64,000 bases of DNA, from the NCBI GenBank assembly GCA_973895155.1, contig OZ316897.1, positions 17,404,058 through 17,468,057 on the forward strand. The letters run 5' to 3'. Shown piece by piece: positions 11,701 through 38,744 of this stretch. The notes under the pieces are model-generated. The model was not told the origin of the DNA. It made no database searches and saw nothing but the letters and a program-made list of their open reading frames with translations. Origin of the DNA: Marsupella aquatica (Eukaryota > Plantae > Marchantiophyta). Made by a program: the position numbers and the translations under genes. How positions within the stretch are numbered: position 1 is the stretch's first letter; every line of letters begins with the position of its first letter.

Positions 11701-14700
11701 CTGCTACCAAAATGATCAGCTTGCTTCAACCTTCAACTTGAGCTATAATGTGTGATCCCTCCCGCACCGTATAGCTCACACTGTTGAAAAATGCAAACTC
11801 CACTAGTAGAAACCGGGGCAATTTAGACCATACCTTATAGGACTAAGCCCACTAAGTCCTTTTTCCATACTTGAAACGACTCGCACCCATTGCACCAGTT
11901 TTGTTGAAGACTACAAAAGACTATTAGTGTTTTATGGTTCACTAAAAGACTATGAGAAGTAACCTTGCTACTTTGTGAACGGTGAATAGTCTAGCACATC
12001 ATGGGTAATGTTCACTTATGTTGAGGAGGGGTAATTCTGTAAAGAGGGAGATAGCAAGGGGCATAACTCAATAAATGGCCTTATTTGTGACAAAAAAGGT
12101 TTTGGAGTGAGGTTCATGGAGGGTGGACTACGGAGGGATCGATTACTAACTCCATCAATAAAAGGCCAAGATGCACAAAGGTAGATTTGTACCGGTCTCA
12201 AGGGGGTGTGGGTTTAGGGTTAGGGGGTTGTCCAGGCAAAGAACACTCGATTGAAATAGTGACGCAATGGTTTAGGGTAAAGGAACATGTTTAGGGACCC
12301 TAACTTGTTTGCTGCCTTGGGAGGATCTTGAGAGCCTGAGCTTGCAAGCGGCATGCACTCTAAAAATGGCCCTTGGCATTGCAAAGATAGTCTGGCCACA
12401 GTCGAGTTGTGAAGACGTTTAGGGGGTTTATATGTCAAGGCTAGGGGGTGGCTGGGTTTTCACTAAAGGGGGTTTAGGGGGGTTTGATGTCAAGGGTCGG
12501 GGGTTGCATGTTAAGGGGATGGGGGTTTAGGAACCATTGGATCGTTGGCATCATGTCCATTGACATCATGTTCCCCATCATGTCCATTGACATCATATAT
12601 GTCGGGAAAGATAATTGACAAATTATTCATGAGGGTAGGCAATTTGGACAATGTTCAATTGTGTTCAGGAGGGGTAATTGCATAAATTAAGAGGGTGATG
12701 ACAAGGGGCATCACTCATTAAATGGCCTTATTTGTGACCAAAAGAGGTTTGGTTTAATGAAGTTCGATCACCACAGATATTTGCTAAGGCCAAAGTATTT
12801 GTTTAGCGACACTACACTAAGTTGTCACTCACAACACTTGAGTGAATGGAGGGGGTTTATGGAGGGTCAGGATAATCTTGCCGTTACCATGTCGGCAACA
12901 CCAGTGACTTTGGTAAGGGTATCCCAAGCTAGGGGCCTGTATCGCTTGCAGTACCGTTTGGACACCCGAGTCGCGCGACCGTTGGAAGGGAACAAGCCGG
13001 TTATGCAACTTTGCTTACACTTAGCAGGTTGTTGATGTGTTTAGGGATCCCGCCACATTCCCAACTTGCGGAGCAAGGTTTATTGTGTTCTCTTGGTGGG
13101 ATCGGGAGTTTAGGGATTGGAGCAAGGTTTTATCGTGTTCTCTCGATGGGATTGGGAGCTTAGGGATCGGAGCAAGGTTTTCCGTGTAATCTTGGTGGGA
13201 ACGTCTCTACAGTGAGGTTTAGTGTTCCCATTTTCTTGTGGTCGGCTCTGTGGAATCCGAGAAGAGGGATCGGGAGTTTAGGGATGCTGCAATGACCGGC
13301 TCTCGAAGGGTGAGGTGAGACAACCTATTCAACGCCCTTTTGCTGCACCCTTAAGCTGTTGAGCTGCCATTGAGCTGGTGAAGCTGCATGCGGGTTGCAT
13401 CTGTTCTACGGGCGCACTATCTGCCTGGTTTATGGATTGTGGACTTTGTGGGGAGCGACAATCGGTAACAACGTGAAGGCCATCAGAGGCTGGGCAAAGC
13501 AGTTTAGGGTGCTGTGGTCGAGGAGGAGCTCACCACAAATTGGGGAGAAGACGTGGGTGACGAGCTGGGGGCGGGGAGGAGCTGCAGTCAGGGAGGATAC
13601 AGACCGTCTACAGAACGACTGGCAGTCGGAGCGGCGCAGGAGCTTAGAGTGGGCCAACGCCAGCTGAATACAAGCCAGGAGTTGCATAAGGTGAGAGTCC
13701 AAGTTTTGTGTTGCTTTAGTGTTCGAGCAGCGTGCTGCCATTTCAGCCATAGTGCACCGCCTTTGAAGCTCCCATTGTCAGGGCTGGTAAGACATCACGG
13801 CTACATTGCTTTTCTTTGTTGTCCTCTGTCTTTTTGTGGGGACAACCTACTTGATTTGAGCTGCGCAAATCGTCATAAGTTAAGGCATGCGTCATGCCAT
13901 CTGGATAGTGTGCCACCGAACTGTGGGAGGATGAGCAACGCGTGGCTGTAAGCAGGTATTCTGTCAGCACAGGCGAGACTTCATTGTTAAAATCCTATTG
14001 CCTGCAATGTGTCTTGTAATGTGTTTTTCCTCATTCAATCAGGAGCTGAGAAGGGTATTGTTAGGCTTCAATTACTCTGTGTTTTTCTCCAGCTCCATGG
14101 TACAGTTTGTGCTTTGTCTGGCGCCCATGCTCCGTCGATCGTAGAGCTAGGTCAACCGAGCTTTGAAGAGGGAGGCTGTGGGAGCTCCTTACTGTGCTGC
14201 AGCTGCTCTTCAATCAACGGTGTAGAGATTGTAGCTACGATCAGTGTTTGCGGAGCTGCCAGCCGGGTGCTTCGATAGTAGAGAAGAGCAGCCACAGTGA
14301 TTCAGTCCTTCTCCTATGTGCAACCAAGGACCCCCTGTGCATCGTAAAGTGTGACCTCGGAGCTGAGCTGCGCACTGTCTCTATTACATGCCTTGTTGTT
14401 CTCTATTACATGCCTTGTTCTCCCGTCCACTATTTCCTGTGATTTTCTTTCTTCTAGAAGAGAATGGTGATTTCTTCTTCAATCAAACAAAACCCCACCC
14501 AACCACCACCCAAGAACGTGGGGTGCGCGCTTCTCAATCCTCCTCAAACTGGCCCCAAGTCTGCTGAAACCCCATATATTACCCACCGGCACCAAGGGTC
14601 CAGTCCCAACCCGTCTTCCGCTTGCCACCCTCCTCACTCTCTCGCGCATCTATCTCCCGATATTTCACGCACAGCCGAGCCCACCAAAAGCTCTCTCCCT

Positions 14701-16606
14701 ACAATCCCTCCTAAATCAACTTTCTCGTTTCCTGTTGCTGCTGATGTATGTTTGTTCTCCCCTATTTTTGTTTACTGATTGGTCTCTCCACACTTCCTGC
14801 TTGACATTACTGTTTTGCTCCTCCTGGATCCAAACATGCCTTGTGCCCCGTGCTCCAACCTGCATCCTTTTCTTTACTGAGGGGGGGACCACAGCCTCCA
14901 GCCATACCTTGTGGCAGGCCTGGTCAAGACGGTGGTCGGTAGCTCGTTTTTGCTTTTTTCTCTTTTGTTTCCCAAGCTTCTGGGCGAGGGCATTACCATT
15001 CTGGATTCTCCGCGAGGCGCCACTAGCTTTTTTTCTCGGTTGCCCGTGTGCCTGCCTTCTTAGTTTTGTTTTTTCCTCAAGTGACCGGGCCATCGCTGTA
15101 TGCAGATTTTTCTTGTTGTATTCATGTACAATATTTTATTGTTCTATCTAGGTTGTGGCAAGCCAACAAACTGTTGACAACCAACATGGAATAACAACTA
15201 TGCAGTGCAATGGCAGAGGACACTGTCCAATATAGGAATGACATGGTTATGTTTTCAATTCCCTGCTTGGATGAGGCGTGGTGTTGCTTGTAATCATGTA
15301 TTTCTTCACACTAGAAAAGCAGTCTGTCGGATGAGGTTGTCGGGATTGTTTGTGGGTCAGTCATCTTACGGACACCTAGCAACGTCAAATGAATGGTGGA
15401 AACGGGCCATGTTGTCATTTTGAAATTTGTCTTTCCTTTTGCCATGCTACCCAATCATTTTGTTAGTCCATGAGTCATAGATTCATAGATTCTATGTTTT
15501 GTGCTTTGTCTAGAATGCTATGGCGCCCATGCTACAATTTGTGGTTTTTGTCTAAGCACAAATCCTCTCTGTGCCTGGTCTCTGTGTACCGTCATTTGGA
15601 TTGATTGTGCAGACGTTTCCTCTTCTCCCAGTCCTTGTCATCCACCAGCCAAAGCACATTGGATTGTTTTCAAAGGAGGGCTGTGTAGTTCGGAGGGTTT
15701 GATCTATGCAGCGGATTTGAGCAGATTGGCGGTTGTTAGTTTCTTCTTGTAAAACCTGTCTGTCTTTTCTGCTTTTGGCCATGCTCCTTCACTTGTTGCT
15801 GCAAGCTCAATGTGCTTCAGCTATGGCAATATTCACTTACCCTGTCCCAACGGCACTGCCATGAGCTGTAGGACAGCCAACAGAAGCAGATTGTATCAAT
15901 TGCATGTAAGTCAGGGTATTTTATGTATTGCGGAACAACTGTCCAAGTATGCTGCAATGGTCCATCTTGCAGAGCTGAATGAGCCAATTTCATTTTCCCT
16001 GTGCACTTCTATTTCTCAGAGAATTCCCTGGTCATGCTCATTTCCCCCAGAGTTAGAAAACAAAGAAGAAGAGCTGACTAATTGTAATTCCAATCCATAT
16101 CCTGATCGGTCAAGGATTGTTCACTACATTGGCCTTGTCATTGGCCGAGGTCACCAAATTTTGCTTGGTTTCATTCCTGTGGAGCACTGCTGTGATGGAT
16201 TTGTCGTAGCATTCTGCAAACTCTCACGGTTTGCTTATGGCCATTATTTGCAATTTGCTGCTACTAATATGTCTTCTTCTAAGCAGCATACACCAGAAGT
16301 AAGCAATAGTGGAGGTTTAACTGCACATCAACACATCTAGTGAACTACCTCTCTGCTGCTCACTGGAGGGTGAGACTTTCACTCTTTCTGGATATTGTAG
16401 TTTGTAAGCAAGTTGATTAGGAGTGTTTCATGCTATGTTTACACTGTGACCCCTAGCTGGAACCAATGGAATGACACAGTGAGTGGGAACTGATAATTTA
16501 AGGTTGGTTGCTGTTGGTGAGGCAAGTACAGCTCCTGCTCACCTTGCTGATCGAAGGTGCTTATCAGAGGACGTGAACACACGACATCTCCACAAAAGCA
16601 ACACTT

Positions 16607-17056
16607 ATGGTGAGGACCCGCAACGCTGAACATGTGCGGCTTGCACGCAAGGCAGAGATGTTGCGCCTTGAGTATGTCAGACTTGGGATCCTTCCAGCCC
16701 AGTCTGCATGGTACTTTGAGTACCCAGTTGTTGCCAGGAACAACTACAGTCGGCCTGTACCTGCTTCTCCACCCTTCCCAACATCCTTGGTATTTCTGTC
16801 TCTTGTACATGACCCGCCACAAATTAGGGCCCAAGGGTGTGTGCACAGTTGCCAATATGACTGTCCTGCCTGTAGGGCTTCTGGCCTAGAGTTGGATGAC
16901 CGTTCTCTTGGATGTCGGTTTTTTCACAGAGCACAATGTATCATCTGGAACCACTCGCCATCCTGCAGTGTGCCTGGCAATGTCACTTGTCCTGCCCTCC
17001 CAGACCCCACCACCGGTCACTTTGGTGTCTACACATGTTTGGATCACACGCTCTAG
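16607..17056 (+). CDS. Cys/His-rich hypothetical protein, possible degenerate zinc finger
   Basis: 149-aa ORF MVRTRN...CVHSCQYDCPACRASG...GCRFFHRAQC...VYTCLDH; co-oriented with the cargo cassette. Confidence 0.4.
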   Translation: MVRTRNAEHVRLARKAEMLRLEYVRLGILPAQSAWYFEYPVVARNNYSRPVPASPPFPTSLVFLSLVHDPPQIRAQGCVHSCQYDCPACRASGLELDDRSLGCRFFHRAQCIIWNHSPSCSVPGNVTCPALPDPTTGHFGVYTCLDHTL

Positions 17057-17725
17057 AGGACCACTTGTCACACCACATGCACAAACCAGAGACCATTGAC
17101 CTATAACTTAACACTTTGACTTGAACAGAGAGGATATTTACTTAAGATTTTGAATTATGACCAATTTTGGGTCCAGGGTTTAGGGTCAACAGTACATAAC
17201 TTATCCTATTATGGCTGCACTAAGTACAATATCCTAATTTAAGAGGCTAGCAAGCTCACTTAAAAGTCTCCTTTCAAAGACTGGAATTAATGGGCCATGT
17301 GATAACCTGGAAAAAGTGATTTATGCCTAACTTATTTGTCTCATTCACTATCATAGCCTATTTAGGATGTATAAATTACAACCCTGATCACACTGCTTGA
17401 TACCAATCCTGTTCAAAAAATGCCTGTTTTACATGTCACGACTGTTATATGTGATTCAAATGCATTAAATCTTGTTGCAGATCTCCTTTGGTGAATCATA
17501 GCCACAAAATTGAGGTGTAGGTGGAGCTATTGTACGAGGGGATCAGTTTTTAGTGTGGGCTCAACAAACCAAAAAGTATGTCTACTCTGCACATGTGTGT
17601 GAACATTTCATTGCAGTAGCAATTGCCACTCTAGTCTATATGCTACACTGTACTTTTTGTACACTGCACTAAATTGTATTGTCTGTGCACTCTGCTAAAT
17701 TGTACTATCTGTCTCATGCGTAGGC

Positions 17726-18406
17726 ATGGCACGCCCTAAAATCCGAGCCAAGAAGCGGGGGACAGAGGTGAGCAACACAGGTGTAGTTGGGCCAGATGGT
17801 AGTAACTTCTCCGCAAGTCAGATTTTCCAGAAGGCAGCTCATTGTTGTGCCATTTGTGACGATGGTGGTGACTTAGCCATATGTGAGGGCCCTTGCATGA
17901 GGCATTTCCACCTCAACCCGGAGTCTGACCTTGCTGCAGAAAACAACTGTCCAGGGGTGGGCCTCCCGTCAGCACACCAAGGAGGCTGGATGTGCACTGA
18001 TTGTTTGGAGAAGCAGGCTAAGTGTGCACAGTGTGGGAAGTTGGGGTCTTATGAGGGCTCTGTTGATGCTCCACCACTTGTTAGGAAATGCCCTGACAGA
18101 TATTGTGTGAGGTTCTTTTGTTTTTCATGTTTGCCCGATCTTGCCACAGCTTGCCCACTTCATAAGTGCAAGGCATGTGGTCAGCACGATGAAGATTTCT
18201 GGGTGGACATAGTCCACTGTGTTAGGTGTCCCACCATGTGGCACTTTCATTGTTTGAAGGAGCGTCAAGCAGAAGGCTATGCTTGTGACAGACACATCTA
18301 TGATCACTCTGCACATGGTGTTGATCGATGGATCTTCTATTGTCATCGCCATGCCATAGATCCTACTTTGCACACTCCCATGAGAGATCACATTTCTTGG
18401 CTTTGA
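17726..18406 (+). CDS. Stand-alone EDM2/NSD-type composite PHD-finger protein (TE cargo)
   Basis: CAICDDGGDLAICEGPCMRHFH...C..C...CAQCGKLGS...CPLHKCKAC...HCVRCPTMWHFHCL...IFYCHRHAIDPTLHTPMRDHISW follows the recalled EDM2 PHD region (CAICDNGG..CCEG.C.RSFH...CPLHKC..C...CRRCP..YH..CL...IYC..HEID..L.TP.RDH). Basic N-terminus RPKIRAKKR. Acceptor AG at 17722-17723. Confidence 0.85.
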   Translation: MARPKIRAKKRGTEVSNTGVVGPDGSNFSASQIFQKAAHCCAICDDGGDLAICEGPCMRHFHLNPESDLAAENNCPGVGLPSAHQGGWMCTDCLEKQAKCAQCGKLGSYEGSVDAPPLVRKCPDRYCVRFFCFSCLPDLATACPLHKCKACGQHDEDFWVDIVHCVRCPTMWHFHCLKERQAEGYACDRHIYDHSAHGVDRWIFYCHRHAIDPTLHTPMRDHISWL

Positions 18407-19006
18407 ACCTGAATAATGTACATGCATAGTGCACCTGATGTGGATACCTTGGAGATTGCAGACATTCCAATTTTGAGAAGAAGGACCTCTGTAGGAGAGG
18501 ATGCTTAGGCAACAAGTACCCTAAGTTCATTACTTGTTCCTGGGTACATGCCTTCAAAATCTCCCCTTAAGCCTTCTAGGAACTTTTTTAACTCTGCAAT
18601 CATTTTGATCACGACTTACATGACACTGCTTAAATTAAATCAGGACTTCTCATTATGAGCATATAAGTTACAAGGCTATTTAATTTGCGAGAATTCCCTT
18701 AAAGTGTACCAACATTTTGTATTCTCATTGAATGTCTGCCCCCATACGAAACATCTGTATGTGGCATCACAAAACAATTGCACTTGTCACCTTCAATATT
18801 GTGAAGGCACATATTCAAACTATGAAGTGCATGCTTGCAGGTGTCTAGTACGTTTGTCCCAATATTTCTCCCGTTTGGAATCGGAGCAGAGACTCACCAG
18901 ACGACTGGACTGGACCAAGTTATAAACGCAGCATTTTAAGGGCCCTCCGATTATCAGGTGAACGCATTATCTTCCGGTCTGCAGTGATTAGGTGGCCCGT
19001 GTGTAC

Positions 19007-19855
19007 ATGGCCTCTAGGAAACGTACAAATGTTGACCACCCGCCTTTGTTGGCTGGAATCAAAGCCATTTTGATTCCTGGCCACTATGGGTTCACCCAAG
19101 TGAGTTGGCCAATCGTACAAAAACGATTCTCAGAGTTCCATGGGACTGAAGTCAAGGACATCACTCCACAGACTACACATGTTGTTGCGGGGACATGGCT
19201 GGATGTGATGAACAAGTGGTCATGGTCCTTCATTGATTCTGCGATTACCAACCAAGGTCTAAAAGTAGTTGAAGTCTCTTGGCTGACCGATTCTGTTAAA
19301 CATAGGTGTGTACAGAGTACTGAGCAATATGAGTTGTGGGAGAGTGAGGAGGCCACTGCAGAGGCTTTGGCTGAAAAGGAAGCCTATGAAGCAGCGGCAG
19401 AGAAACCCAACTTTGCTTCTGTCCAATATGGACCTGTTGTCAACATAGGACACCATCCTATGCGTGCAGATGCTATATTGAATGAGCATGGCAAGGAGAG
19501 AAATACCATTATGAAGGGGTTCAGTGTGGTATTTGCAGAAGAAGGAATTGGGGAGACTAAGTGCAGACTGTACAAGTCTATAGTTGTTGAGCTAGGTGGG
19601 ACAGTGGAGGAGAGTCTAACAGAAACCTCCACTCATGTTGTAGGTCTGTCATACATGAAAATATGCAGAAAATTCTTTAAGACAACAGTGCGTGATTTTG
19701 TCATGAACAACAATCTTTGGGTGCTTTCCCCTGATTGGCTTCTGGAATCAGCAGCTAGAGGGAAGCGACAGAATGCTTGGGACTTTGATATTTTTGAGGC
19801 CTGGCCCTCCAAGATTCAGCGGAGATGTATGCTTAGCAAAGGTGGGAGAGAGTGA
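19007..19855 (+). CDS. Tandem BRCT-domain protein (TE cargo)
   Basis: Two BRCT repeats: ...HGTEVKDITPQTTHVVA...VVEVSWLTDSVK...EQYEL and ...LGGTVEESLTETSTHVVG...VLSPDWLLESAARGKRQN. First ATG 19007 (ORF track from 18992). Confidence 0.85.
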   Translation: MASRKRTNVDHPPLLAGIKAILIPGHYGFTQVSWPIVQKRFSEFHGTEVKDITPQTTHVVAGTWLDVMNKWSWSFIDSAITNQGLKVVEVSWLTDSVKHRCVQSTEQYELWESEEATAEALAEKEAYEAAAEKPNFASVQYGPVVNIGHHPMRADAILNEHGKERNTIMKGFSVVFAEEGIGETKCRLYKSIVVELGGTVEESLTETSTHVVGLSYMKICRKFFKTTVRDFVMNNNLWVLSPDWLLESAARGKRQNAWDFDIFEAWPSKIQRRCMLSKGGRE

Positions 19856-20031
19856 GGAGTAGGAGTCCCTCATATTTTTGTATAAATCACAATTTTGTAA
19901 TAAATGTGATCCTTGAACTAACTCATCTTGTCATGGTTGGTCGCAGTTGAAGTGATTGTTGTTTCCTGCTGCGTGGGGTGTGACTGTGAATCTACTTGCT
20001 GGGCTCTGTTTGGCTGAAGACTTTGGTGGGT

Positions 20032-20565
20032 ATGCTGCCTCTTCCAGACCGTCAGGCCCTGTGTAGGGTCCTCCTACGGGTTGCATCGTGCATGGCTACT
20101 GCTTGGGCTTACTTGTGTGGATTGGTAACCAGACAGAGTGTAGCTCCATCCGAGATAATGCCTGCAGACCTTGGATGTGTTGTGAATGCTGTGGTGAATG
20201 AGGATGCACAGTCGGAAGAGGACATTTACTTTTCAGCAGATGAGTTAGACAAGCACGATGCTGTAGGTGGTTCCTTGTTGCCTGATTTGGCAGATGATAT
20301 AGTTCTTACACATGTCTGGCCGAGGGTTCTTGTGGTGTCTGGCGCACAAGATATCTGCAAATATAGACTAATTAGTACCCAGTGGAGGGACTTGGTAGCA
20401 ACATGTGCACCATGGAGGGCACTGCTGCCACTGCTTGTAGGCACGGATCGAAGACCACCATGGCATGAGCAGGGTTTAGACCTTGATGACTTAATGTACA
20501 TGCCTGAGTACCTCAGGGCTGAGTGGCATCGACAACAAGATTGGTATCCGTATTTGATGTGGTAG
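20032..20565 (+). CDS. F-box motif protein (TE cargo)
   Basis: SLLPDLADDIVLTHVWPRV...ICKYRLISTQWRDLV fits the F-box consensus LP.LPDD+...+..R+...+R.VC+.WR.L+. First ATG 20032. Confidence 0.7.
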   Translation: MLPLPDRQALCRVLLRVASCMATAWAYLCGLVTRQSVAPSEIMPADLGCVVNAVVNEDAQSEEDIYFSADELDKHDAVGGSLLPDLADDIVLTHVWPRVLVVSGAQDICKYRLISTQWRDLVATCAPWRALLPLLVGTDRRPPWHEQGLDLDDLMYMPEYLRAEWHRQQDWYPYLMW

Positions 20566-20891
20566 TAAGATGAGGACATCTCACACCGGTCTCGCACCTG
20601 GCACCTGTGTCTATGACTATACATGATTGGACTCTGATATGGTCATGGATGTACGTGCAGAGGCAGTACATGTGAGGACAGCGGAGGAGTTGACATCCTC
20701 AAACATTTAGGAATTTTGTCTCATTCACTTGAGAATAGGTACATGACTCAGGCACCTATATTTTTTGTTTTTTTGTTTTTTTGGAACGTTACGTATTTTG
20801 GCAAGTACAGTCGGGGGTGAAATCCTTAACAGGAAGTGTATTTTTCACTTGCATAATAAAATGACAGGGTGCTGAGTGCGTGTGTATAGTG

Positions 20892-23800
20892 ATGGCTCCA
20901 AGGTTGCCTCTTCACAACCCATTTAGGATTAGGCATCATGATTCTAAATTGTGGATGCGTGAACAAGCCCGGGCCGCCCAAGGTAGGAGTAGGAGGATGA
21001 GATGCCCATGCACACAGTGCCAAGGATTCAAGTCATTGAGTTTGAACACTGTGCACCTTCACCTGCTGCGGCATGAAAGGCACCCTCGGTGGAGGGTTTG
21101 GAATGTACCAGCAGAAGAAGACTCCTCTGATGAAGAGTGGAGAGCTGACTTTGTGGATTCTAATACAGCTAGGCGTAGAGACTACGTAGAGCAGGACATA
21201 GACTGTGCAGAGGATGGTCCTGGGGTCCAACATGAGAACGTGGATGACCAAGATGGAGATGCAGAGGCAGTCACTGAGGACGGTGGGATGGATGTCCCAA
21301 GAATGGTTCAAGAGATTTTTGAAGACCTTGATGCTTTTTACGACACAGTGGAATCAGAAGAGGACAATGAACCGCAGCCACACATTGGCGACGGCCAAGC
21401 TGAACCTGACTTTGACATTGGGGAAGGTGCAGCAGAGAGGGAGTGGGTGTTTGGGGGCCCAAAACACATCAAAGAAGCTTGCATTCCTATCTACGAGGGG
21501 TCGAACTGCTCCAAGCTGGGTTTTGTCGTGTTGTTGTTGAACATCTGTGGCAATCACAATGTTCCCAATATATTTGTGACAGAGTTGTTGACCTTCCTGC
21601 GCCGAAATGTGTTACCAGATGGTAATTCAATTCCAAAAAATATGTACGAGGCTAGGAAATTGATGTCTAACCTTGGGCTGAACTATGTGTCTATTGACGC
21701 ATGCCCTGATGGGTGTGTTCTCTTTCGCAAAGAGCATGCAGATAAATTGACATGCCCTCATTGTGGTAAGCACAGGTACAAGAATGTAGGGAAATGTACA
21801 CACCCTGCCAAGGTTCTTCGTCATTTTCCTCTCATTCCTAGACTACAACGTCTGTTTAGATGCCCTGCCATTTCCAAGCTGATGACATGGACTCCTGATA
21901 ACAAGAGCAGTGATGGCCTGCAGCGTCACATTGGAGATTCCAACCATTGGAAATTTGTTGATGAGAGGTGGCCACAGTTTGCTGCAGAGAAGCGGAACTT
22001 TCGATTTGGTCTATCACTGGATGGAGTAAACCCATTTGGAGACAAAAACAACCGTTATTCATGTTGGCCGGTTACGCTGCTAAATTACAACCTTCCCCCA
22101 TGGATGACTACAAAGAGGTTTTTTGTCATGATGGTGCTGTTAATCCCTGGACCAGCTTCTGTGACCGAGCAATTCATAGATATCATGTTGGCTCCAGCAG
22201 TGGAAGAGTGGAAGACTTTGTGGATAGAAGGGGTGTTAACCCATGATGTTCTGAAGGGGCTTCTTCGACCCAGCCCCTTTAGACTGCATGCAATTTGTTT
22301 GCTGGATATAGCAGATTACCCAGGCTATGGCATCATATCTGGACGAGTGACAAAGGGCTATGTGGGGTGCACACCATGTGGGAAAAATGTGACAAGTGAG
22401 TGGTCGCATGCCCTGCACAGTATGAAATTTCAGGGGCATAGAAGGTATCTGCCTGTTGATCATCCTTACAGGCACACACGGTCTCAAATTGCACACTTCA
22501 ACAACAAAACAGAGCTTCGTGGCCCACCACAGAGGGTCACCAGAGAGCAAGTCCTGAGGTGGGCAGCCAGGAAGGCTGATTGGGACAAGAGAAGTGCCAC
22601 TGATCGAGAACCTGAGGATCCAGTGGTGAAACACGGTGTGAAAAGACAGACCTTGATGGACTTGGAGTTGGAGTACTGGAGGGTAATGTACTTAGCCTCC
22701 AGCCCCTGTATGATTGCAATTTTAGATTGGAGCAATGGTGGATTGATGTTGGTTACAATCCTCCTATGTGGTTAATTAGTGTTTCTGTTGTTGAATTCTT
22801 TGCTTTGTGGAGTGCAGGAATTCGAGCCCAGCAAACACAATGTGGACGTCATGCACATTGAGAAAAATATTTGTGAGAGCTTGCTGAAGTTCTTGTCGGG
22901 TGAGAAAGATACAGGAGCAGTTCGAGCTGATATGCAACAGAAGGGGATTCGCCCTCACCTTTGGTTGAAGCCCCATGCAAGCAATCCCAATGTACTTCTC
23001 AAGTTCCAAGCTCCCTATGTGTGCACACAGGATGAATGGAAGACATTCTTGTATAGATTGAGCTGTCTGAAAGTGCCCTCTGGCTATGCTGGTGCCTTCA
23101 AGAAGCATATTACAAAGAATAAACTTGGCAGTATGAAAACACATGACTACCATGTGTTGATGCAGCACATTCTGCCCCTATGCCTCAGAGGTCTCATGCA
23201 GAAACCAGTCCATAATGTCATTCTTCGACTGTGCAATGTATTTCGCCGTATATGTGTGAAAGTGTGGGATCCCCAAGGATTGGAGCAGTTGAAGCAGGAT
23301 GCTGCTTATGTCCTCTGTGACTTGGAGATATACTTCCCCCCTGCTTTCTTTGATGTTATGACTCATCTCCTAATCCATGTGGTAGAAGAGCTAGGGCAGT
23401 ATGGGCCAGTCAGTACCAGATGGATGTACCCTATGGAGCGATACATGAAGTTGTTGAAAGGTCATGTGAGAACATACTACAGGCCAGAGGCTTCCATGGC
23501 ATTGGGGTACATTAAGGATGAGACGTTGGGATTCCTAACAGAGTACATGGCTGGGTCTGGTGAAGCTATGACAAGAGTTTGGAAATCTGGTGAAGATGAT
23601 GGAGTGAGTGGCGAGGTTGTTGAAGGTGTGGGACGTGCTGTTCAGCTGCCTGTTGCGATTCGAGACAAGGCTCATTCATATGTGCTGGCAAACACAGAGC
23701 CTATGCAACCATGGTGGAGGTGAGTGATTGAATTGACTTGCCTTTGTTGTGATGCTTCTTGTCTGTTCCAAGGGTGATCTTAGGTTGTCATGTGTTGTTT

Positions 23801-24592
23801 AGACCTAACTATGCCTGTACCTCATATTGCAGGGAATATGATATGCAAAAAGCTGCACACTCTGGGCAGCAGGATCCCTTCCCACAGTTCGAGCAGTGGA
23901 TTCGGGTGACAATTCGAGAGCATAGTAGACATCACCCAGATATGGAGAAGGATTTGTATCTTCTATCTGTGCCACCACGATTGTCTATTCTGACCTACAA
24001 ACGGATGAGAGCTTATGGAAATCATTATCGAGTGAGGGATGAGCAGGGTGACCATTGTGTATCATATGATTGTGGTTTGATTTCTGTGTTTGAGCAGAGA
24101 ACCTCTGAAGAACAGAGGGGGTGGATGAAGATGGGTTACGTGGGGGAGTTGACCGACATTTGGGTGTTGAATTATGGTAACACAAGTGTCCCAGTGATAT
24201 TGATGAAGGGATCATGGGTGAAATCAGAGTGGCAGAGACCAAGGGCCACCATGAAGCGTGATCATGATGGGTTCTTGTTGGCCAATTTTAGGTCCAGAGT
24301 ACCAGAATGGTCTGAGCCTTTTGTTTTCCCTAGCCAAGTTGAACAGGCTTTCTTTGTAGATGTGGAGGAGTCACATGGCTGGAGGGTGGTATGCCATAGC
24401 CAAGCACGGAACAGGCGGATGGATGGAAGTAAAGTAGAGTTCAGTTTGGATGACCATGCTGCATTCGAGCATCCTAGTCATGAGACTGTACTTCCAACTC
24501 GGGCAGGGACTGACTACATCCCCTTAACATTGAGAGAGACATATGATGAACCTGGGCAAATGGAATATGATGAGGTTGATGATTTGCAATAG
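20892..24592 (+). CDS. CACTA TnpD transposase, apparently intact; exons 20892-22682, 22818-23719, 23833-24592 (~1150 aa)
   Basis: CPCxxC N-domain, IDACPDGC, LSLDGVNPF, NYNLPPW, ADYPGYG, DVMHIEKN, KTHDYH, FFDVMTHLLIH, WMYPMERY, EPFVFPSQVEQAFFV. Both GT-AG introns join in frame. Confidence 0.95.
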
Positions 24593-24769
24593 GCAACAGC
24601 TGGCGATTGGCAAGTATGAGGTTGAGGATGACTACCTGCACAGAGTCACAGAACGGGAATTGCTGCCTGGAATGATGTTTAGGATAGTTGGATATGCATG
24701 AAATTGATTGATACTTTGAATTTAGTGTGCTGATTCTCCCTGTTTGGTTGTGGGTGCTGTGCAGAAGCT

Positions 24770-27700
24770 ATGGGGGAAGAGGGTGATGACATGGAGACAG
24801 ACATGGGGCTTGGAGAGTGGGGTGAAGAGGAAAGATTGGATATGGATGGAGACCCAGATGCAGGGGGCTCACAGAAAAATGCACCTGTGCAGGATGCACA
24901 GGGCCCTCATCAAGTCCCAGGTAGGTGGGCAGCTAGAGAGAAATCACATAATCCATACCCTAGAAGGAGCCAGAGTTATTGGCAAGGGACGCCTGATAAT
25001 TATGATGATGACTATGATGGAGCAGAAGATGGATGGGATGAATATGAACACCCAGAGCGTGGTAGAGACGGGTACAGAGGGCAATGGACAGGTGAGGAGG
25101 ATGATTGGACAAGTAAGTGCCTTGTGCTAGTGATTTTGTGATGGTAGTAGAGATTTAGCTCAATATGGACTTATCTGATGTGTAGCTAGGGCAAAGAGTT
25201 TATCTTACAGGTCCATGAGTGTGGCATGTACCTGTTGGTATGCAGACTCTGATTGGGACAATCACGAAAACAACAAAGGCCATCCACGTTCAGATAGGCG
25301 GCAATCATTCACAGGCGGGAGAAACGGCCCTAATTCATCAAGACAAAGCAATAGGACAGGTGGTCCAGAACCATCTATGCGCCAAGGGAGAGGTAACTTG
25401 GTCATTGCAGAATTGCTCTGAAGTCCAGTGTATATTTGGCAGCAGGATTTATGATTCATACTTACCTAATGTAAGTGACTGTAAATGGATCCTGTAAATG
25501 TGCAGGGACTCCAGGGAGGTTTGGACAATGCAATCCAGGCCGTGGGGGGAGATCAGGCCGTGGAGGGACCCCAGGCCGTGGGGGGACACCAGGCCGTGGA
25601 GGGACACCTAGTAGCGCTTCAGGGAGTACCAAGGCAGGAGACAGTAACAAATTTGGTAAAGTAGAAGTGAATTCCGAAGGTTGGATAACTCCCACATGTG
25701 ATGGTAAGAACCGTTGGCATTCTGACCTAAGAGGAGAAGTATTGCGTTGGTTAGATTTGAGCATTACAGAGTTTAGGAGTCAGAACAAAGCTGATTGGGC
25801 TGCTATCTGCAAGGACATTCTTGAACGGTGGGACTATGTTGGTAATGATGGTAAGGGCCCAGTTGAAGATTGCATATCAGATTATGCAATGAGGATTTTG
25901 AAACAAGAGAGGCATAGGTTGAAAAGGATGTGGATAGACAATGGTTCTAACAGGAGAATGCCACCACCCCCATCATTGGAACTGGATCAATGGACACGGT
26001 TAATCAAAGGGTTCATGTCGGAGGCTGGACAGAGCAAGAGTGAACTGATGTCAAATGCTCGAGGCAAAGTGAAACACCTTTCACAGGCTGGGAGAGGAAG
26101 TTATGCTCCAGTGAAAGAACAATTGGTAAGGCAGTGACATGCCTAATAGTAAGCCTCAAACTTATCATCTTGCTACCATTATTACATTTTCATTGACAAT
26201 CAACACTTGGTTTCATTCATATGTATGTTGATGTGGACTGCAGAAGAAATTGACAGGTGAAGAACCATCAGCACAAGAAGTGAGAGAGGAGTTCATGAAA
26301 CAAAGGAGTGAGGTGACAAGTGTGACTTCCAAACAGGTGATTATGTTGTAATTCTATATGTTCTGTGACTATTTGGCCTTGAGCATCAGAAAGAATTGTA
26401 GTAGGAAGTAAGCAACCAGTTCTTGGGGACAATTATCTGAGATATGTAAACTGTGTTATGACAGGGAACTGTTACAACTCTCACAAAGATGTCTGAACGG
26501 TTGAAGTCATTAGAGTGTGGACTCCCTCGAGTGGAAAGTAAATTGGCTGATCGTTTGGATATTGTGGAGGCATCTGTAGCGAACCTTCTTGCATCAGTGG
26601 AATCTAATTTCAAGCTTGTGATTGAAAAATTGGGTGGTTCCCAACCAAACAATGAGGGCAACATTGTACAAAGTGTGCCCTTGTTAACAAAAAAGGGAAT
26701 TGGCAAATCTGACACAGGTATGCAATGAGGATTTTGAAACAAGAGAGGCCCATTGTTCATTGTGTCCTATGTTCAAATGTTAGAAGTAAGTTTTCATGAA
26801 TTGAGTGAATGGTTTGAATGCAGGAAGAGTGGAGGCAGAGAACCTGGACCCTGTAATCGGTAAGCAGAATGGCAAAAAGGTTGCTGAGACAGGTAACCTG
26901 CTATGATCCAGTACATTACATTTGAAAAGTGCATGGAGTTTTGTGAAGCTTAAGCCGGTTGGAGGTAATCTTTTCTGTAAGAATTGGTTGGATAAACTGG
27001 GAATTGAAGTGACATCATGATTGATGTATCAGGTGATTCAAAGAGCAATGAAAAAGATGTGCCCAGTGCCTCAGTGACCATAGCCAAGGAGGTATCAGGT
27101 AAGCTGATGCTTTAAATTCCTCTCCTACCATTGTTGAGAAACAATTCAGTGGTTAATAGATTGAACCTGAATCTTGTGGTCTGTTTATTGATCAGCAGAA
27201 GCAGACATGGAGGATATGGCAATGGCAAAGAAGGGGAAGAAGGCTGTTCATAATGGTAAGGAGATAGTGACAACTTTGTGGATGGTGACATGTACATGGC
27301 GCACATGTGATGAGTGATTCACTTATGTTGGACAATGCATTGAATTGTAGTTGATGCAGAGTTGACAGACTCTCAACCAAGTGGGAGCAGGGTGAAGCGA
27401 CGTCGAAACTTGGGAGCAACATTGGATGCAAGTAAGATTGTAGATGCTTCAATTGAAGCAAGTACAATGTTAGCAGATACTGAGATGATGTCGCAGGGAA
27501 ATCCTGCTACACAATCGGAAGTGTCAAATATGGATGCAGATTCTTTGAAGAAGAGTGTAGCCAATTCTCGATCACCAGCACAAAACACTCGTGCCAAAGT
27601 CATGACTCGCAACCAAGGTATGAATAATGTCATGTATAAGCCACCCAGGAAAGCCAAGAAAAACAGCCAGGGTAAGGTGGAGGTGATAGCCACAGCAGAG

Positions 27701-27955
27701 CCAGTCCATAATCTTCTATCATGGGAGAATGACTCGCAGGTATGTGTGGGTACAGGCATTTTGCGACCGGATCATGCTAAATTCCATGGCAAAGTGGTCC
27801 CGGATGACCATGTAGTAGTGTTGTTGACTACAGTGATTGTATCTGATTGTAATTTGCCATTTCCGAATAGAGACGATGATCCACCTCAAGAAATAATTGC
27901 AGATGCAGTAGGATCTCTTGTGCTCTGGCCATCAGAGTGTGTTAGTCTGCAGTGA
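24770..27955 (+). CDS. TnpA-like multi-exon CACTA accessory gene
   Basis: Series of short exons with GT/AG borders (24770-25112, 25246-25392, ~25506-26125 and others). Core ILERWDY...ILKQERHRLKRMW..PPPP...QWTRLI. C-terminal En/Spm-type domain (VGTG...FHGKVVPDDHVVV...LPFP...DAVGSLVLWP). Exact exon chain not fully resolved. Confidence 0.7.
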
Positions 27956-29081
27956 CTGAATACAAGTGTAGATAGAATCATGTGAATTGTGTTACATTTT
28001 GACATTGCCTTGGAAAAATCCAAGAAATATCTGTACCAATTTTTCCATTTGGTAAAGAGGATGAAGGAGCCGTTGTGTGTGACATTGATATTTCTGAATT
28101 CTGTATGTATGAAACAAGTGATTGATGTCAAACTATGGCTCTATGGTGATTGTCTATGATACTTGAATCTGTTTTGTATCAATTCAGTATTAGTGTGTAT
28201 GGTATAGACGAATGCTTTGTGACCTTCTTTGTAGTCTATGATGTTTGAATCTGTGAATTCATATTAGTGTACATGGTATAGAAGATGGTTTCTGAAAATT
28301 TGTGTGAGGTTCTAATGTTAACATGGTGAATGGTGACCTTATAGAGTGAGTTCATTCCAAGTACACAATAAAACATGAATGAAATGTGTTATTTGTGCAC
28401 AAGAGTGAGTTCATTCCAAGTAGTATAGTGGGGTCTTCATCACTCATTTCCAGTTGACATGAAAGACTTGTACATACCCCACAAAGTGTCTACTTTAGTC
28501 GTTTTATAAACCCCCACAAAGTGTCTACTTTAGTCATTTTATAAACCCACAAAGTATATTTAAAGACTACCCTCCATAACCTTTTGAGTTGTTCCCAACG
28601 ACTCACCATCGCAGCCCATAAAAGACTGAAAAAGACTCACCAAAGCTACCCACACAAAGACTAAAATAGACTGAAAATCCAGTCTATTAAACGACTTATA
28701 AACCAGTTCTATAAAGGACTCAGTTGATTATAGTAACAAAACATACGACTCGCAGTCCTATAAAGGACTAGAGTCCTTCCCAGTCGTTTCCAAGTCCTAT
28801 ACGGTATTGAATAGTCGTTTAATGGGGTCTAAATACCCCCCGGTTTCTACTAGTGCTCTAGTTTCTCCCCCAAAAAGCCGTCAAACACGAATAAAACTTG
28901 AACGACGCAAAATTCAATTCCTCCGCACCACGGATATCGATCAGCAAGTTCTAACCACCGTCAAAAAGCGCTCTCACTAACCTATCCGCTCAGCCACACA
29001 CATTCAAGTTTTATGCAACAAAACTCTGAATGTACCATTGAGTACAATGAATGCTGGAAAACCTCGTCACCTCCCAGACAT

Positions 29082-29093
29082 GCTCTGATACCA
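29082..29093 (-). promoter_or_regulatory. Primer binding site (tRNA-iMet) of LTR copy A
   Basis: Minus strand TGGTATCAGAGC, 2 nt from the LTR end. Confidence 0.9.
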
Positions 29094-29095
29094 AT

Positions 29096-37600: not shown

Positions 37601-38386
37601 AGAATTGCTTTTAGTGTGGAGAGTTCCAAGCAACTAGAATAACATGAATTTAGAACCCTATTAATGATCAAAGCATAAGATTAGGGTAGAGATTGTATCC
37701 AAGCTTATATCTTAATTATTAGACTAGATGAATGTTTTATTTATTATCCAACACATTTTATATTTCTATCACCCAAATGTTTTTCTATAGAATCCAAATT
37801 AATATTTATTTTTCCCCAAGGTACAATCTTGATTCCCCAAATGTACATTAAATGGTGCCCAAATGTACAACTTTCACTACCCAAATGTACAATTCTTGTG
37901 CCCAAAAATATATATTTTAGTGCCCAAATGTCCAAAGATCAAAGAATTATCTAGTTTTAATGAATAGAGTGATCTCCATAGCTTGTGAAAAAACCTGAAT
38001 GCCTCCTTCACTTGTCACGTCGCACTCGGTCACAACTCGGCAGCATTCCAACTACCGAAATGACCAGATCGCTTCAACCTTCAACTTGAGCTATAATGTG
38101 CGATCCCTCCCGCACCGCATAGCTCACACTGTTGAAAAATGCAAATTCTAGTCTCTCCCCCAAAAAGCCATCGAACACAAATAAAACCTGAATGACGCAA
38201 ACTTTGATTCCTTCGCACCACGGATACCGATCAGCGAGTTCTAATCACCGATAGAAAGCCCTCTCACTAACCTATCCGCTCAGCCACACACATTCGAGTT
38301 TCATGCGACAAAACTCCGAATGTATCACCGACACTAAACACTGGAAAAAAACCCATCACAAAAAAACCTTGTCATCTCCCAGGCAT

Positions 38387-38398
38387 GCTCTGATACCA
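38387..38398 (-). promoter_or_regulatory. Primer binding site (tRNA-iMet) of LTR copy B
   Basis: Minus strand TGGTATCAGAGC adjacent to the LTR. Confidence 0.9.
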
Positions 38399-38400
38399 TT

Positions 38401-38744
38401 TGTTGAGCATAGACGATATTCGCAACGGCAAGTCCATGAACCATCCAACGTAGAAGAGTCGACACAGAGAGATACGTGATTCACCTCCACATGAGGCTAC
38501 GTCCACGGGAACACACAAGAGCTTTACTGCACTCTGACCGGCCATACCAAACATCCACAGTACAAGCTCTTCCTATCTCTCAACTAGCTCCATAACAATG
38601 AGCCTAAGTTCCACCCAGGGTCTGGCATCAACCTTGGCTATATATATGCACAACAACACTACCGCTAACATTAGCTAAGTCCTGACCCAAGTTAGACTAA
38701 CTGTGGTGAGCTCATGAGTCACAAGACTAGAGCAATATCTAACA
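38401..38744 (-). mobile_element. LTR (copy B), 344 bp
   Basis: TGTT...AACA termini, adjacent PBS, homologous to the solo LTR at 55228. Confidence 0.9.

What the first reader, a model, noticed from the sequence alone, without database searches (positions are those of the whole stretch)
17726..18406. Transposon-encoded stand-alone EDM2-type PHD module
Seen: a 226-aa ORF consisting of an NLS-like start plus the Cys/His array ending IFYCHRHAIDPTLHTPMRDHISW. Known: Arabidopsis EDM2 uses this composite PHD region to read H3 tail marks including H3K9me2. With ASI1/AIPP1 it promotes full-length transcripts across intronic heterochromatin. Inference: a reader-only copy lacking EDM2's C-terminal domains could act as a decoy or tether that lets a heterochromatic element be transcribed and processed, or could steer insertion to marked chromatin.
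Basis: partly seen in the sequence, partly recalled or inferred. Interest (0 to 1): 0.85.

Follow-up and report, generated by a model that had tools for sequence, protein, structure and literature searches.

The report
Transposon-borne EDM2-type PHD reader gene
A 17-kb cut-and-paste (CACTA) transposon in a liverwort genome carries a small gene made only of the three-zinc-finger module of the plant heterochromatin factor EDM2. Related copies keep it intact, and it would likely let the element read, and perhaps blunt, the chromatin marks used to silence it.

Summary
Window 17726..18406 (+) is an intact 226-aa ORF: a basic N-terminal tail followed by three 8-ligand Cys/His fingers.

- **EDM2 type.** It aligns end to end with the PHD module of Selaginella EDM2 (33% identity, E 8e-26), including the closing RDHI motif. 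It hits the three NSD/EDM2-type Pfam PHD models in the EDM2 order. Its model (pLDDT 87) best matches NSD PHD5-C5HCH tandems (Z 5.6-5.8).
- **Transposon-borne.** The ORF lies inside a 17,055-bp CACTA element (11801..28855). The element has exact 18-nt CACTA inverted ends, a 3-bp CTC target duplication, a paralogous uninterrupted site and a Tnp2-type transposase. It is high-copy in public DNA runs of at least three coded organisms.
- **Host.** A liverwort.
- **Conserved stand-alone form.** Eight intact stand-alone relatives (36-82% identity) keep the zinc ligands. Most share the same MAR start and ISW[L/I] stop. They form one well-supported clade, separate from the long EDM2-like proteins.
- **Missing EDM2 parts.** The RFD-like and C-terminal domains are absent, so this is an EDM2-type module, not an EDM2 orthologue.
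- **Still open.** Histone binding, expression, splicing and any decoy or tether role are untested. No RNA data could be found. No paper describing such an element turned up.

The parts
11798..11800 (.). Left copy of the 3-bp target-site duplication (CTC)
   Evidence: The paralogous uninterrupted site at about 38146-38148 reads TTC.
11801..28855 (+). Whole CACTA (En/Spm-type) transposon, 17,055 bp, carrying the PHD gene
   Evidence: Flanks 11623-11800 and 28857-29428 are contiguous in the paralog 37970-38732 (88% and 83% identity). Contigs of four public runs cover every one of 30 bins.
11801..11818 (+). Left terminal inverted repeat, CACTAGTAGAAACCGGGG
   Evidence: exactly 2 matches in the window, in inverted orientation; 0 expected.
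17726..18406 (+). The finding: intronless 226-aa ORF, a stand-alone EDM2-type triple PHD module with a basic N-terminal tail
17846..18004 (+). Finger 1 (residues 41-93; ligands C41 C44 C53 C57 H62 C75 C90 C93)
   Evidence: Ligands are invariant in 8 of 8 intact relatives, except C44 (7 of 8). Pfam PHD-1st_NSD. The closest solved sequence is AIRE PHD1, E 0.0039.
18023..18163 (+). Finger 2 (residues 100-146; C100 C103 C122 C127 C132 C135 C143 H146). A Cys (C132) stands where EDM2 has His.
   Evidence: C132 in 8 of 8. His at the aligned position in Selaginella and Cynara EDM2. Pfam PHD_NSD gives only a weak hit.
18167..18403 (+). Finger 3 plus C-terminal Cys/His extension (residues 148-226; C148 C151 C165 C168 H173 C176 C206 H209; invariant H194, H222; RDHISWL end)
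   Evidence: Pfam PHDvar_NSD. The model best matches NSD3/NSD2/NSD1 PHD5-C5HCH tandems, which I assign to this part from the Pfam PHDvar_NSD hit.
19007..19855 (+). Second accessory ORF, 282 aa from its ATG, tandem BRCT
   Evidence: Pfam BRCT E 6.5e-14 with 2 stretches, BRCT_2 E 3.5e-9. Weak BRCA1 BRCT sequence hits, E 0.1-0.7.
20032..20565 (+). Third accessory ORF, 177 aa, F-box-like (lead only)
   Evidence: Pfam F-box E 0.081, below cut-off. Atlas rank 4, score 0.91, only 82 shared features.
20892..24592 (+). TnpD-like transposase region: Transposase_21 (ORF to 22775), DUF4218 (22779-23723, same frame after one stop), DUF4216 (23759-24592, other frame)
   Evidence: Pfam E 4.4e-60, 2e-27, 4.4e-6. 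Frames.
25475..26137 (+). RGG-repeat ORF with a weak TnpA-type match
   Evidence: Pfam Transposase_24 E 0.014, below cut-off.
28838..28855 (-). Right terminal inverted repeat
28856..28858 (.). Right copy of the target-site duplication (CTC)
37970..38732 (+). Paralogous copy of the insertion target without the element (empty-site-like)

Best explanation
The ORF is an accessory gene of a multi-copy CACTA transposon of a liverwort. It encodes only the three-finger, six-zinc PHD module of the plant EDM2 family, and it is predicted to be a nuclear histone-H3-tail reader that likely acts in trans for the element as a reader-only competitor on silenced chromatin. Shown: the ORF; its EDM2-type architecture; its place inside a TIR- and TSD-bounded element next to the transposase; the high copy number of the element; and a diversified clade of stand-alone relatives that keep the zinc ligands, the length and mostly the same start and stop. 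Inferred: it was taken from a host EDM2-family gene and kept by selection on the element. It enters the nucleus through its basic tail and binds H3 tails carrying heterochromatin-type marks, as the EDM2 module does for H3K9me2. Having no effector domain, it would occupy those tails and so interfere with host readers that reinforce silencing. One candidate is the EDM2-anchored reader-writer loop described in Arabidopsis. My confidence that it is a conserved, element-borne EDM2-type reader gene is about 0.8. My confidence in the competitor (anti-silencing) mechanism specifically is about 0.3.
For: Identity: ORF; three collinear NSD/EDM2-type PHD hits; the 2 proteins with E<=0.001 among 337 longer candidates are named EDM2 (Selaginella) and EDM2-like (Cynara); residues 40-225 align with Selaginella EDM2 255-440, 33% identity, E 8e-26, to the last RDHI motif. 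EDM2-likes carry the same three Pfam fingers in the same order. Fold: one search gives pLDDT 87.3 and pTM 0.82 with 73 sequences. NSD3 PHD5-C5HCH Z 5.8 (rmsd 2.7, 84 aligned), NSD2 Z 5.7, NSD1 Z 4.6; the next rows score Z 3.5 or less. Transposon: TIRs, TSD, paralogous uninterrupted site; Transposase_21, E 4.4e-60; 607 to 15,233 contig pieces per run laid on the element in 4 runs of 3 coded organisms, with all 30 bins covered. Constraint: one search gives 5 stand-alone relatives of 217-245 aa at 38-82% identity by BLASTP; the top hits are short stand-alone proteins (E 8e-71 to 1e-29), followed by a gap to the long EDM2-like proteins (E 1e-20 and weaker). One search, on 8 intact proteins: 22 of 38 Cys/His positions in the core are invariant against 20 of 150 other positions, and the N-terminal tail diverges much faster (P0003: 9/38 against 111/185). 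Six of 8 stop at the same ISW[L/I] position; the 9 stand-alone rows form one clade (bootstrap 100, SH-aLRT 98). Decayed copies (P0008, P0010, P0011, P0016, P0024) sit beside intact ones, as expected for a transposon gene. Mechanism background: EDM2 binds H3K9me2 and affects H3K9me2 at over 2,000 TEs (PMC7529245, passages). EDM2 anchors the ASI1-AIPP1-EDM2 complex on H3K9me2, and ASI1 recruits SUVH6 in a self-reinforcing loop (PMC9910501, passages). Apart from the poorly conserved tail, the protein has no region outside the module that could serve as an adaptor surface.
Against: No binding, expression or splicing data exist. No RNA holder was listed and every laid run consisted of contigs. Whether the diverged relatives (P0003-5, P0009, P0013) also lie in transposons is unknown, because their DNA could not be fetched; part of the conservation could therefore belong to host genes. 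No dN/dS could be computed. The Pfam hits are each below the gathering score. The careful tree leaves the position of the stand-alone clade among host EDM2-like proteins unresolved, so neither a donor nor a direction of transfer is shown. Marchantia has a host-annotated 280-aa protein (Mp4g03050, P0069) that is also almost only this module, so a stand-alone form is not unique to transposons. PHD fingers can also bind proteins, so an adaptor role is not excluded. This copy has an in-frame stop between the Transposase_21 and DUF4218 ORFs and may not be autonomous.
Confidence: 0.45

Rival explanations
1. Targeting tether. The reader would bind a chromatin mark and, through contacts with the element's transposase, TnpA-like, BRCT or F-box-like proteins, steer excision or insertion to marked chromatin. 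Chromodomains of chromovirus integrases are recalled to work this way.
For: The ORF lies on the same strand and immediately upstream of the BRCT, F-box-like and transposase ORFs. This copy is inserted into another repeat: copies of the target sequence lie at 37970-38732 and 55226-55573. That fits insertion into repetitive chromatin.
Against: None of the 34 relatives scanned has a transposase domain. Outside the PHD module only a fast-diverging 38-residue tail exists. One nested insertion is not a preference.
Confidence: 0.2
2. It is an exon rather than a gene. The ORF would be one coding exon of a longer, alternatively spliced element transcript, as En/Spm makes TnpA and TnpD from one precursor (recalled). 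The real product would then join the PHD module to BRCT or other downstream exons.
For: All ORFs from 17726 to 27955 are on one strand. An AG lies 2 bases before the ATG. 5.9 kb of non-coding sequence separates the left end from the ORF.
Against: The frame closes with TGA right after the module, and there is no GT between the last conserved residues and the stop. The same stop position is kept in 6 of 8 relatives down to 36% identity, and a MAR start recurs. BRCT, ORF177 and the transposase each have their own ATG. No skip-type joint with GT..AG ends was seen near the ORF, but the laid runs were contigs that look like DNA.
Confidence: 0.12
3. Inert passenger. It would be a transduplicated fragment of a host EDM2-family gene that rides along without function and is intact here only because the copy is young.
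For: Plant CACTA and Mutator elements often pick up host gene pieces (recalled; MULE gene capture is stated in the abstract of PMC6446971). Many relatives are truncated or frameshifted.
Against: The stand-alone clade is old and diversified: a stem of about 1.3 changes per site and internal identities down to 36%. It still keeps the ORF length, the start, the stop and the zinc ligands. A contig of another coded organism differs at 30 bases over 227 nt. Applying the 28 differences that were listed individually gives 13 residue changes, many of them conservative, no stop and no ligand change.
Confidence: 0.13

Closest known systems
EDM2 (ENHANCED DOWNY MILDEW 2) and EDM2-like proteins of land plants: their composite PHD module
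   Same: The three fingers come in the same order and spacing, and the alignment runs end to end, including the closing ...YC..H...P.L.TP.RDHI motif. They give the same three Pfam models. They are the best longer sequence relatives. [quoted passage not shown]
   Different: There is no DNMT1-RFD-like N-terminal domain; 6 of the 34 relatives scanned, plus Cynara EDM2-like, have one. Nothing follows the module, so the PGR and ELP / N6-adenine-methyltransferase-like domains listed for EDM2 in PMC7529245 are absent. In finger 2 a Cys replaces the His ligand. Only 31-33% identity. Carried by a transposon.
Marchantia polymorpha Mp4g03050 (P0069), a 280-aa host-annotated PHD protein
   Same: It also consists almost only of this module (residues 78-275 of 280) and ends ...RDHVKFPDPE. 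About 38% identity to the window protein over the matched stretch.
   Different: It groups with the longer liverwort proteins Mp1g03210 and Riccia R1sor_003797, not with the stand-alone clade of the window. It keeps His in finger 2. Its genomic context could not be examined here.
NSD1/NSD2/NSD3 PHD5(PHDv)-C5HCH tandem (PDB 4gng, 4gnf, 4gnd, 9gbf, 2naa)
   Same: These are the best structural matches to the model: Z 5.8, 5.7, 5.6, 5.6 and 4.6, 83-86 residues aligned, 23-26% identity. I assign the match to finger 3 plus the C-terminal extension from the Pfam PHDvar_NSD hit. Entry titles show that these tandems bind H3 peptides, including H3K9me3. The Pfam models that hit the ORF are named after NSD.
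   Different: NSD proteins are SET-domain methyltransferases of animals and fungi with PWWP domains. The sequence match to NSD2 is marginal (E 0.03). Z below 8 is only middling by the tool's own note.
Transposon-encoded epigenetic factors: VANC-type anti-silencing proteins of VANDAL (MuDR), SET methyltransferases of HarbingerS and MuDR families of Phytophthora, TET/JBP dioxygenases of fungal DNA transposons
   Same: The concept is the same: a DNA transposon carries, beside its transposase, a gene acting on the chromatin or DNA marks that silence it (PMC12730594, introduction passages).
   Different: Those are writers, erasers or sequence-specific regulators. This is a reader-only histone-binding module of the EDM2 family in a CACTA element of a liverwort. 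My searches found no paper describing such a case.
Readers fused to transposition enzymes: chromodomain of chromovirus (Ty3/gypsy) integrases (recalled); PHD finger in Rehavkus transposases (PMC6446971, passages)
   Same: A histone-reader fold encoded by a mobile element.
   Different: Here it is a separate ORF 2.5 kb upstream of the transposase start.
En/Spm (CACTA) superfamily, the carrier
   Same: CACTA termini, a 3-bp target duplication, a Tnp2/Transposase_21 + DUF4218 + DUF4216 transposase, a weak TnpA-type match and subterminal repeats.
   Different: Three extra ORFs (PHD, tandem BRCT, F-box-like) lie between the 5' region and the transposase.

Membership tests
EDM2 / EDM2-like (ELP) protein family | Composite three-finger PHD module, collinear with EDM2 over its whole length | tested here: met
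   40-225 against 255-440, E 8e-26; Cynara, E 7e-24; same three Pfam fingers in the same order.
EDM2 / EDM2-like (ELP) protein family | N-terminal DNMT1-RFD-like domain | tested here: not met
   Only 38 residues precede finger 1 and no Pfam hit is found there. RFD is present in Cynara EDM2-like and in 6 of 34 scanned relatives.
EDM2 / EDM2-like (ELP) protein family | C-terminal PGR and ELP (N6-adenine-methyltransferase-like) domains, listed for EDM2 in PMC7529245 | tested here: not met
   The ORF stops right after the module, two residues past the last residue aligned to EDM2.
EDM2 / EDM2-like (ELP) protein family | Groups inside the EDM2-like proteins in a tree | tested here: inconclusive
   In the quick tree of 79 rows it nests with bryophyte and lycophyte EDM2-likes at SH-aLRT 80-88. 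In the careful tree of 30 rows the stand-alone clade is one side of a 100/98 branch and its place among the host groups is unresolved.
EDM2 / EDM2-like (ELP) protein family | Binds H3K9me2-marked H3 tails; works with ASI1/IBM2 and AIPP1/EDM3 | not testable with these tools
NSD-type PHD arrays (Pfam PF23011, PF22908, PF23004) | Scores at or above the Pfam gathering thresholds | tested here: inconclusive
   24.4 against 27, 17.2 against 23.9 and 25.8 against 27 bits: all just below, but collinear. Relatives P0003, P0005 and P0013 pass for one model each.
NSD-type PHD arrays (Pfam PF23011, PF22908, PF23004) | PHD5-C5HCH-like fold of the last finger pair | tested here: met
   Z 5.8/5.7/5.6/5.6/4.6 for NSD3, NSD2 and NSD1 tandems, above the next rows at Z 3.5 or less. 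Foldseek TM (target) 0.59-0.60. The Z values are middling.
NSD histone methyltransferases | SET, AWS and PWWP domains | tested here: not met
   No such Pfam hit in the 226 aa.
CACTA / En-Spm transposons (the carrier) | Terminal inverted repeats beginning CACTA | tested here: met
CACTA / En-Spm transposons (the carrier) | 3-bp target-site duplication | tested here: met
   CTC on both sides; the paralogous site has a single TTC.
CACTA / En-Spm transposons (the carrier) | Tnp2-type (TnpD-like) transposase | tested here: met
   Transposase_21 E 4.4e-60, DUF4218 E 2e-27, DUF4216 E 4.4e-6. One in-frame stop lies between the first two ORFs.
CACTA / En-Spm transposons (the carrier) | TnpA-type second protein | tested here: inconclusive
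   Transposase_24 E 0.014, 16 bits against a cut-off of 28.7.
CACTA / En-Spm transposons (the carrier) | Multiple copies in the genome | tested here: met
   Hundreds to thousands of contig pieces per run over the whole element in 4 runs of 3 coded organisms. One of these runs may be the sample the window was assembled from.

The most novel reading that the evidence does not exclude
A lineage of CACTA transposons in liverworts has turned the histone-reading module of a host heterochromatin factor (EDM2 family) into its own reader-only anti-silencing protein. It may work with the co-encoded tandem-BRCT and F-box-like proteins as a small counter-defence kit. A second, unrelated CACTA family in the same window carrying a SET-domain ORF would then point to repeated recruitment of chromatin genes by these elements.
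Probability: 0.25. Interest if true: 0.85.

Novelty: new variant of a known kind. Interest (0 to 1): 0.6.

Why it matters
Transposons are known to carry writers, erasers or sequence-specific regulators of the marks that silence them. A conserved, reader-only copy of a host heterochromatin reader would be a different tactic: competition for the mark itself.

- **Natural experiment on EDM2.** The module is cut exactly at its domain borders, so it shows what the EDM2 PHD module does on its own.
- **Ready-made probe.** It offers a compact six-zinc reader that could be used to probe heterochromatin in bryophytes.
- **A testable entry point.** It gives a way to study how DNA transposons cope with silencing in early-diverging land plants.
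- **If it proves inert.** It still dates and delimits a clean gene-capture event in a high-copy liverwort CACTA family.

Tried and rejected
- **Genome.** No whole genome is held for the window, so no copy census, no linkage test and no dN/dS were possible.
- **First repeat scans.** The repeat finder reported 0 inverted pairs at minimum length 25. The classical CACTACAA motif gave one irrelevant hit. The ends were found instead from the split paralog.
- **Sequencing runs.** No RNA holder was listed. All laid runs were contigs. No GT..AG skip was seen around the ORF, which says nothing about splicing. X7, X9, X10 and X11 gave only fragments.
- **One variant contig.** The 28 listed differences of an X9 contig fall 13, 9 and 6 on codon positions 3, 2 and 1. 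They change 13 of 77 residues and no ligand. This is too little for a selection test.
- **Complex prediction.** Complex prediction (PHD with BRCT) was never accepted because the queue was full, so no verdict exists.
- **VIA-align.** Busy six times before one search ran.
- **First structure.** The first AlphaFold run, with 8 sequences, was poor (pLDDT 64). It was replaced by the 73-sequence run.
- **Foldseek PZP hits.** JADE1 and BRPF1 had good E-values but TM of only about 0.2, and just Z 2.3-2.5 on one finger in the second look. I did not take them as the fold of the whole module.
- **Liverwort sister group.** The quick tree's grouping of the stand-alone clade with the liverwort host proteins did not survive the careful tree, so I name no donor.
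- **Upstream sequence.** Pfam found nothing credible in nine ORFs between the left end and the PHD gene.
- **SET ORF.** No solved relative by sequence.
- **Earlier findings of this scan.** Nothing on this genome or sequence.
- **Papers not held.** PMC4203584 (EDM2 PHD peptide binding) and PMC5584460 (AAE complex). What they show is cited only through other papers' text.
- **Literature searches.** No description of a CACTA-borne EDM2-type module turned up.
Full report
**Observation**

Window 17726..18406 (+) is an open frame of 226 codons with an ATG start and a TGA stop. The stop-to-stop frame opens only nine codons upstream. tblastn finds no second copy in the window.

Pfam gives three collinear hits: PHD-1st_NSD at 39-93 (E 3.3e-5), PHD_NSD at 96-140 (E 6.3e-3) and PHDvar_NSD at 148-180 (E 1.1e-5). 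Each is just under its gathering score.

**The carrier is a bounded CACTA transposon**

A self-comparison of the window showed that 11623-11800 and 28857-29428 are adjacent in a third place, 37970-38732, at 88% and 83% identity. An alignment of the three junctions and the raw sequence fix the ends:

- Flank ...GCAAA-CTC, then CACTAGTAGAAACCGGGG... at 11801.
- The same 18 bases inverted, ending at 28855, followed by CTC-TAGTT.
- The uninterrupted paralog has a single TTC at that point.

The 18-mer occurs exactly twice in the window, in inverted orientation, with none expected by chance.

The 17,055-bp unit contains, all on the + strand:

| Coordinates | Content | Evidence |
|---|---|---|
| 17726..18406 | PHD ORF | |
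| 19007..19855 | Tandem-BRCT ORF, Pfam BRCT E 6.5e-14 | |
| 20032..20565 | 177-aa ORF, F-box lead only (E 0.081; Atlas 0.91 with few shared features) | |
| 20892..22775 | Tnp2-type transposase, Transposase_21 E 4.4e-60 | |
| 22779..23723 | DUF4218 | |
| 23759..24592 | DUF4216 | |
| 25475..26137 | RGG-rich ORF, weak Transposase_24 match (E 0.014) | |

Nothing recognisable lies in the 5.9 kb between the left end and the PHD ORF. A single in-frame stop separates the Transposase_21 and DUF4218 ORFs. It may lie in an intron or be a defect of this copy.

**Copy number and host**

No genome is held. Eleven public runs hold part of 17500-20700; none is on record as RNA.

I laid four of them (three coded organisms) on 11601-29000. 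They gave 1,124, 15,233, 607 and 6,512 contig pieces and covered all 30 bins. Many pieces were 99% or more alike, for example 6,241 of 15,233 in X2. So this is a high-copy family. One of the runs may be the window's own sample. X2 also has contigs that join 11791 to 28856 and 11800 to 28864 with a few other letters between, which look like further uninterrupted paralogs of the target.

A host gene in the window, a two-exon carboxylesterase at 58547-60719 (-), is 88% identical to a Calypogeia fissa protein and 75% identical to Marchantia MpGID1L1. The genome is therefore that of a liverwort.

**What the protein is**

The word-indexed search found five near-length relatives among 94 candidates: P0001-P0005, 217-245 aa, at 82, 75, 54, 40 and 38% identity by BLASTP, all from unnamed assemblies. 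Among 337 longer candidates it found two, named EDM2 (Selaginella) and EDM2-like (Cynara).

Residues 40-225 align with Selaginella EDM2 255-440 (33% identity, E 8e-26) through to ...YC..H..P.L.TP.RDHI. Cynara gives E 7e-24. The EDM2-likes carry the same three Pfam fingers in the same order.

The exhaustive search gave 247 hits at E<=1e-3. The top hits are short stand-alone proteins (E 8e-71 to 1e-29). After a gap come long proteins with the module at about residues 220-430. I scanned 34 of the 150 listed hits. Six have an N-terminal DNMT1-RFD domain and none has a transposase domain.

A profile built from the six stand-alone proteins scores further stand-alone relatives (P0009, P0008, P0013, P0012) at 174-233 bits. 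Every long protein scores 128 bits or less. The six builders match by construction.

Names for ten neighbours were recovered: Marchantia Mp4g03050 (280 aa), Mp1g03210 and Mp2g00350; two Riccia proteins; Physcomitrium EDM2; two Diphasiastrum proteins; and Miscanthus EDM2-like.

**Trees**

For the quick tree I kept 79 of 156 sequences, those with long module coverage plus five short outgroup rows. The nine stand-alone rows form one clade (SH-aLRT 100) nested with bryophyte and lycophyte EDM2-likes at support 80-88.

For the careful tree I chose 30 rows. The stand-alone clade is again one side of a 100/98 branch, with a stem of about 1.3 changes per site and two internal subclades. Its position among the host groups is unresolved. 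I therefore name no donor.

**Constraint**

I compared eight intact stand-alone proteins (window, P0001-5, P0009, P0013), which are 36-82% identical to the window protein in the alignments.

- In the core (residues 39-226), 22 of 38 Cys/His positions are invariant against 20 of 150 other positions.
- The 24 conserved ligands fall into three sets of eight, which predicts six zinc sites.
- The N-terminal tail diverges much faster. For P0003 it is 9/38 identical, against 111/185 in the core.
- Six of the eight end at the same ISW[L/I] position. P0009 adds two residues and P0003 adds nine.
- A MAR start recurs.
- At finger 2 all eight have Cys where Selaginella and Cynara EDM2 have His.

Other relatives are truncated or frameshifted: P0008, P0010, P0011, P0016 and P0024. 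That is expected for dead transposon copies.

These gene calls are ORF calls on contigs, not verified mRNAs. I could not fetch their DNA, so neither their transposon context nor dN/dS is known.

**Fold**

With 73 sequences AlphaFold gives pLDDT 87.3 and pTM 0.82. The first run, with 8 sequences, gave pLDDT 64.

By VIA-align the best solved matches are:

- NSD3 PHD5-C5HCH: Z 5.8, rmsd 2.7, 84 residues aligned. One such entry is bound to an H3K9me3 peptide, by its title.
- NSD2 PHDvC5HCH: Z 5.7.
- NSD1: Z 4.6.

The next rows score 3.5 or less, and these Z values are middling. Finger 1 alone resembles single PHD fingers solved with unmodified H3 tails (TRIM66, AIRE) at Z 2.2-2.4. By sequence it is closest to AIRE PHD1, E 0.0039.

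**How it most likely works**

Shown: a conserved, element-borne, reader-only EDM2-type module. The rest is inferred.

In Arabidopsis, EDM2 binds H3K9me2 and influences H3K9me2 or transcripts at over 2,000 transposons (PMC7529245, passages). It also anchors the ASI1-AIPP1-EDM2 complex on H3K9me2, while ASI1 recruits the writer SUVH6 in a self-reinforcing loop (PMC9910501, passages).

Its one region outside the module is a fast-diverging basic tail, which is likely a nuclear localisation signal. Such a protein is best suited to occupy marked H3 tails and compete with host readers. I commit to that competitor mechanism at about 0.3. The rivals are:

- Targeting tether: 0.2.
- Exon of a larger spliced product: 0.12.
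- Inert passenger: 0.13.

**Comparison with what is known**

It is a member of the EDM2-type PHD-module family by sequence and architecture. It is not an EDM2 orthologue, because the RFD-like and C-terminal domains were tested and are absent.

As a phenomenon it belongs with transposon-encoded chromatin factors: VANDAL anti-silencing proteins, SET genes of HarbingerS and MuDR, and TET/JBP genes of fungal transposons (PMC12730594, introduction passages). It also belongs with reader domains fused to transposition enzymes, such as the Rehavkus PHD (PMC6446971, passages) and chromovirus chromodomains (recalled).

Seven full-text searches found no description of a CACTA-borne EDM2-type reader. Marchantia Mp4g03050 shows that a nearly stand-alone module also exists as an annotated host gene.

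**Verdict**

I rate it a new variant of a known kind, with interest 0.6.

Noticed in passing
window 2325-6310 (+): A second CACTA-type transposase (Transposase_21 E 2.8e-38 at 3981-5252; DUF4218 at 5375-6310) is only 36% identical to the first. It is preceded by a 243-aa SET-domain ORF (3096-3827, Pfam SET E 2.8e-5) and a weak Transpos_assoc ORF (2325-2636). So two unrelated CACTA families in one window each carry a chromatin-related ORF upstream of the transposase. The SET ORF has no solved relative by sequence. The ends of this element were not found.
   Followed up: partly
window 19007-19855 (+): A tandem-BRCT ORF (282 aa from its own ATG) lies inside the same transposon, 0.6 kb downstream of the PHD gene. 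An AATAAA lies about 45 bases after its stop.
   Followed up: partly
window 20032-20565 (+): A 177-aa ORF inside the transposon has only weak F-box leads: Pfam E 0.081, and Atlas rank 4 at 0.91 with 82 shared features.
   Followed up: partly
window 22773-22775: A single in-frame stop separates the Transposase_21 ORF (to 22775) from the DUF4218 ORF (from 22779, same frame). It is either inside a short intron or a nonsense mutation that would make this copy non-autonomous.
   Followed up: no
window 30857-34470: A satellite array of about 3.6 kb with a period of about 69 bp and 77-85% identity between units lies just beyond the transposon's host repeat.
   Followed up: no
window 43880-45786: An internally repetitive, GC-rich stretch (GC 0.54) with self-matches at many offsets. 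It is overlapped by a 461-aa minus-strand ORF with a below-par FeThRed_B hit (E 3.9e-8, no stretch passing on its own).
   Followed up: no
window 35302-37188: A tandem duplication of about 757 bp (35673-36425 against 36430-37188, 90% identity), plus a 108-bp-offset repeat at 35302-35885.
   Followed up: no
window 58547-60719 (-): A host gene in two exons, a GID1-like / carboxylesterase-11-like hydrolase. It is 88% identical to a Calypogeia fissa protein and 75% identical to Marchantia MpGID1L1, which places the window in a liverwort. Repeats of about 128 bp lie just upstream at 60712-61253.
   Followed up: partly
window 11623-11800 + 28857-29428; 37970-38732; 55226-55573: The transposon is inserted into another dispersed repeat that has at least two further copies in the window, so this is a nested insertion.
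   Followed up: partly
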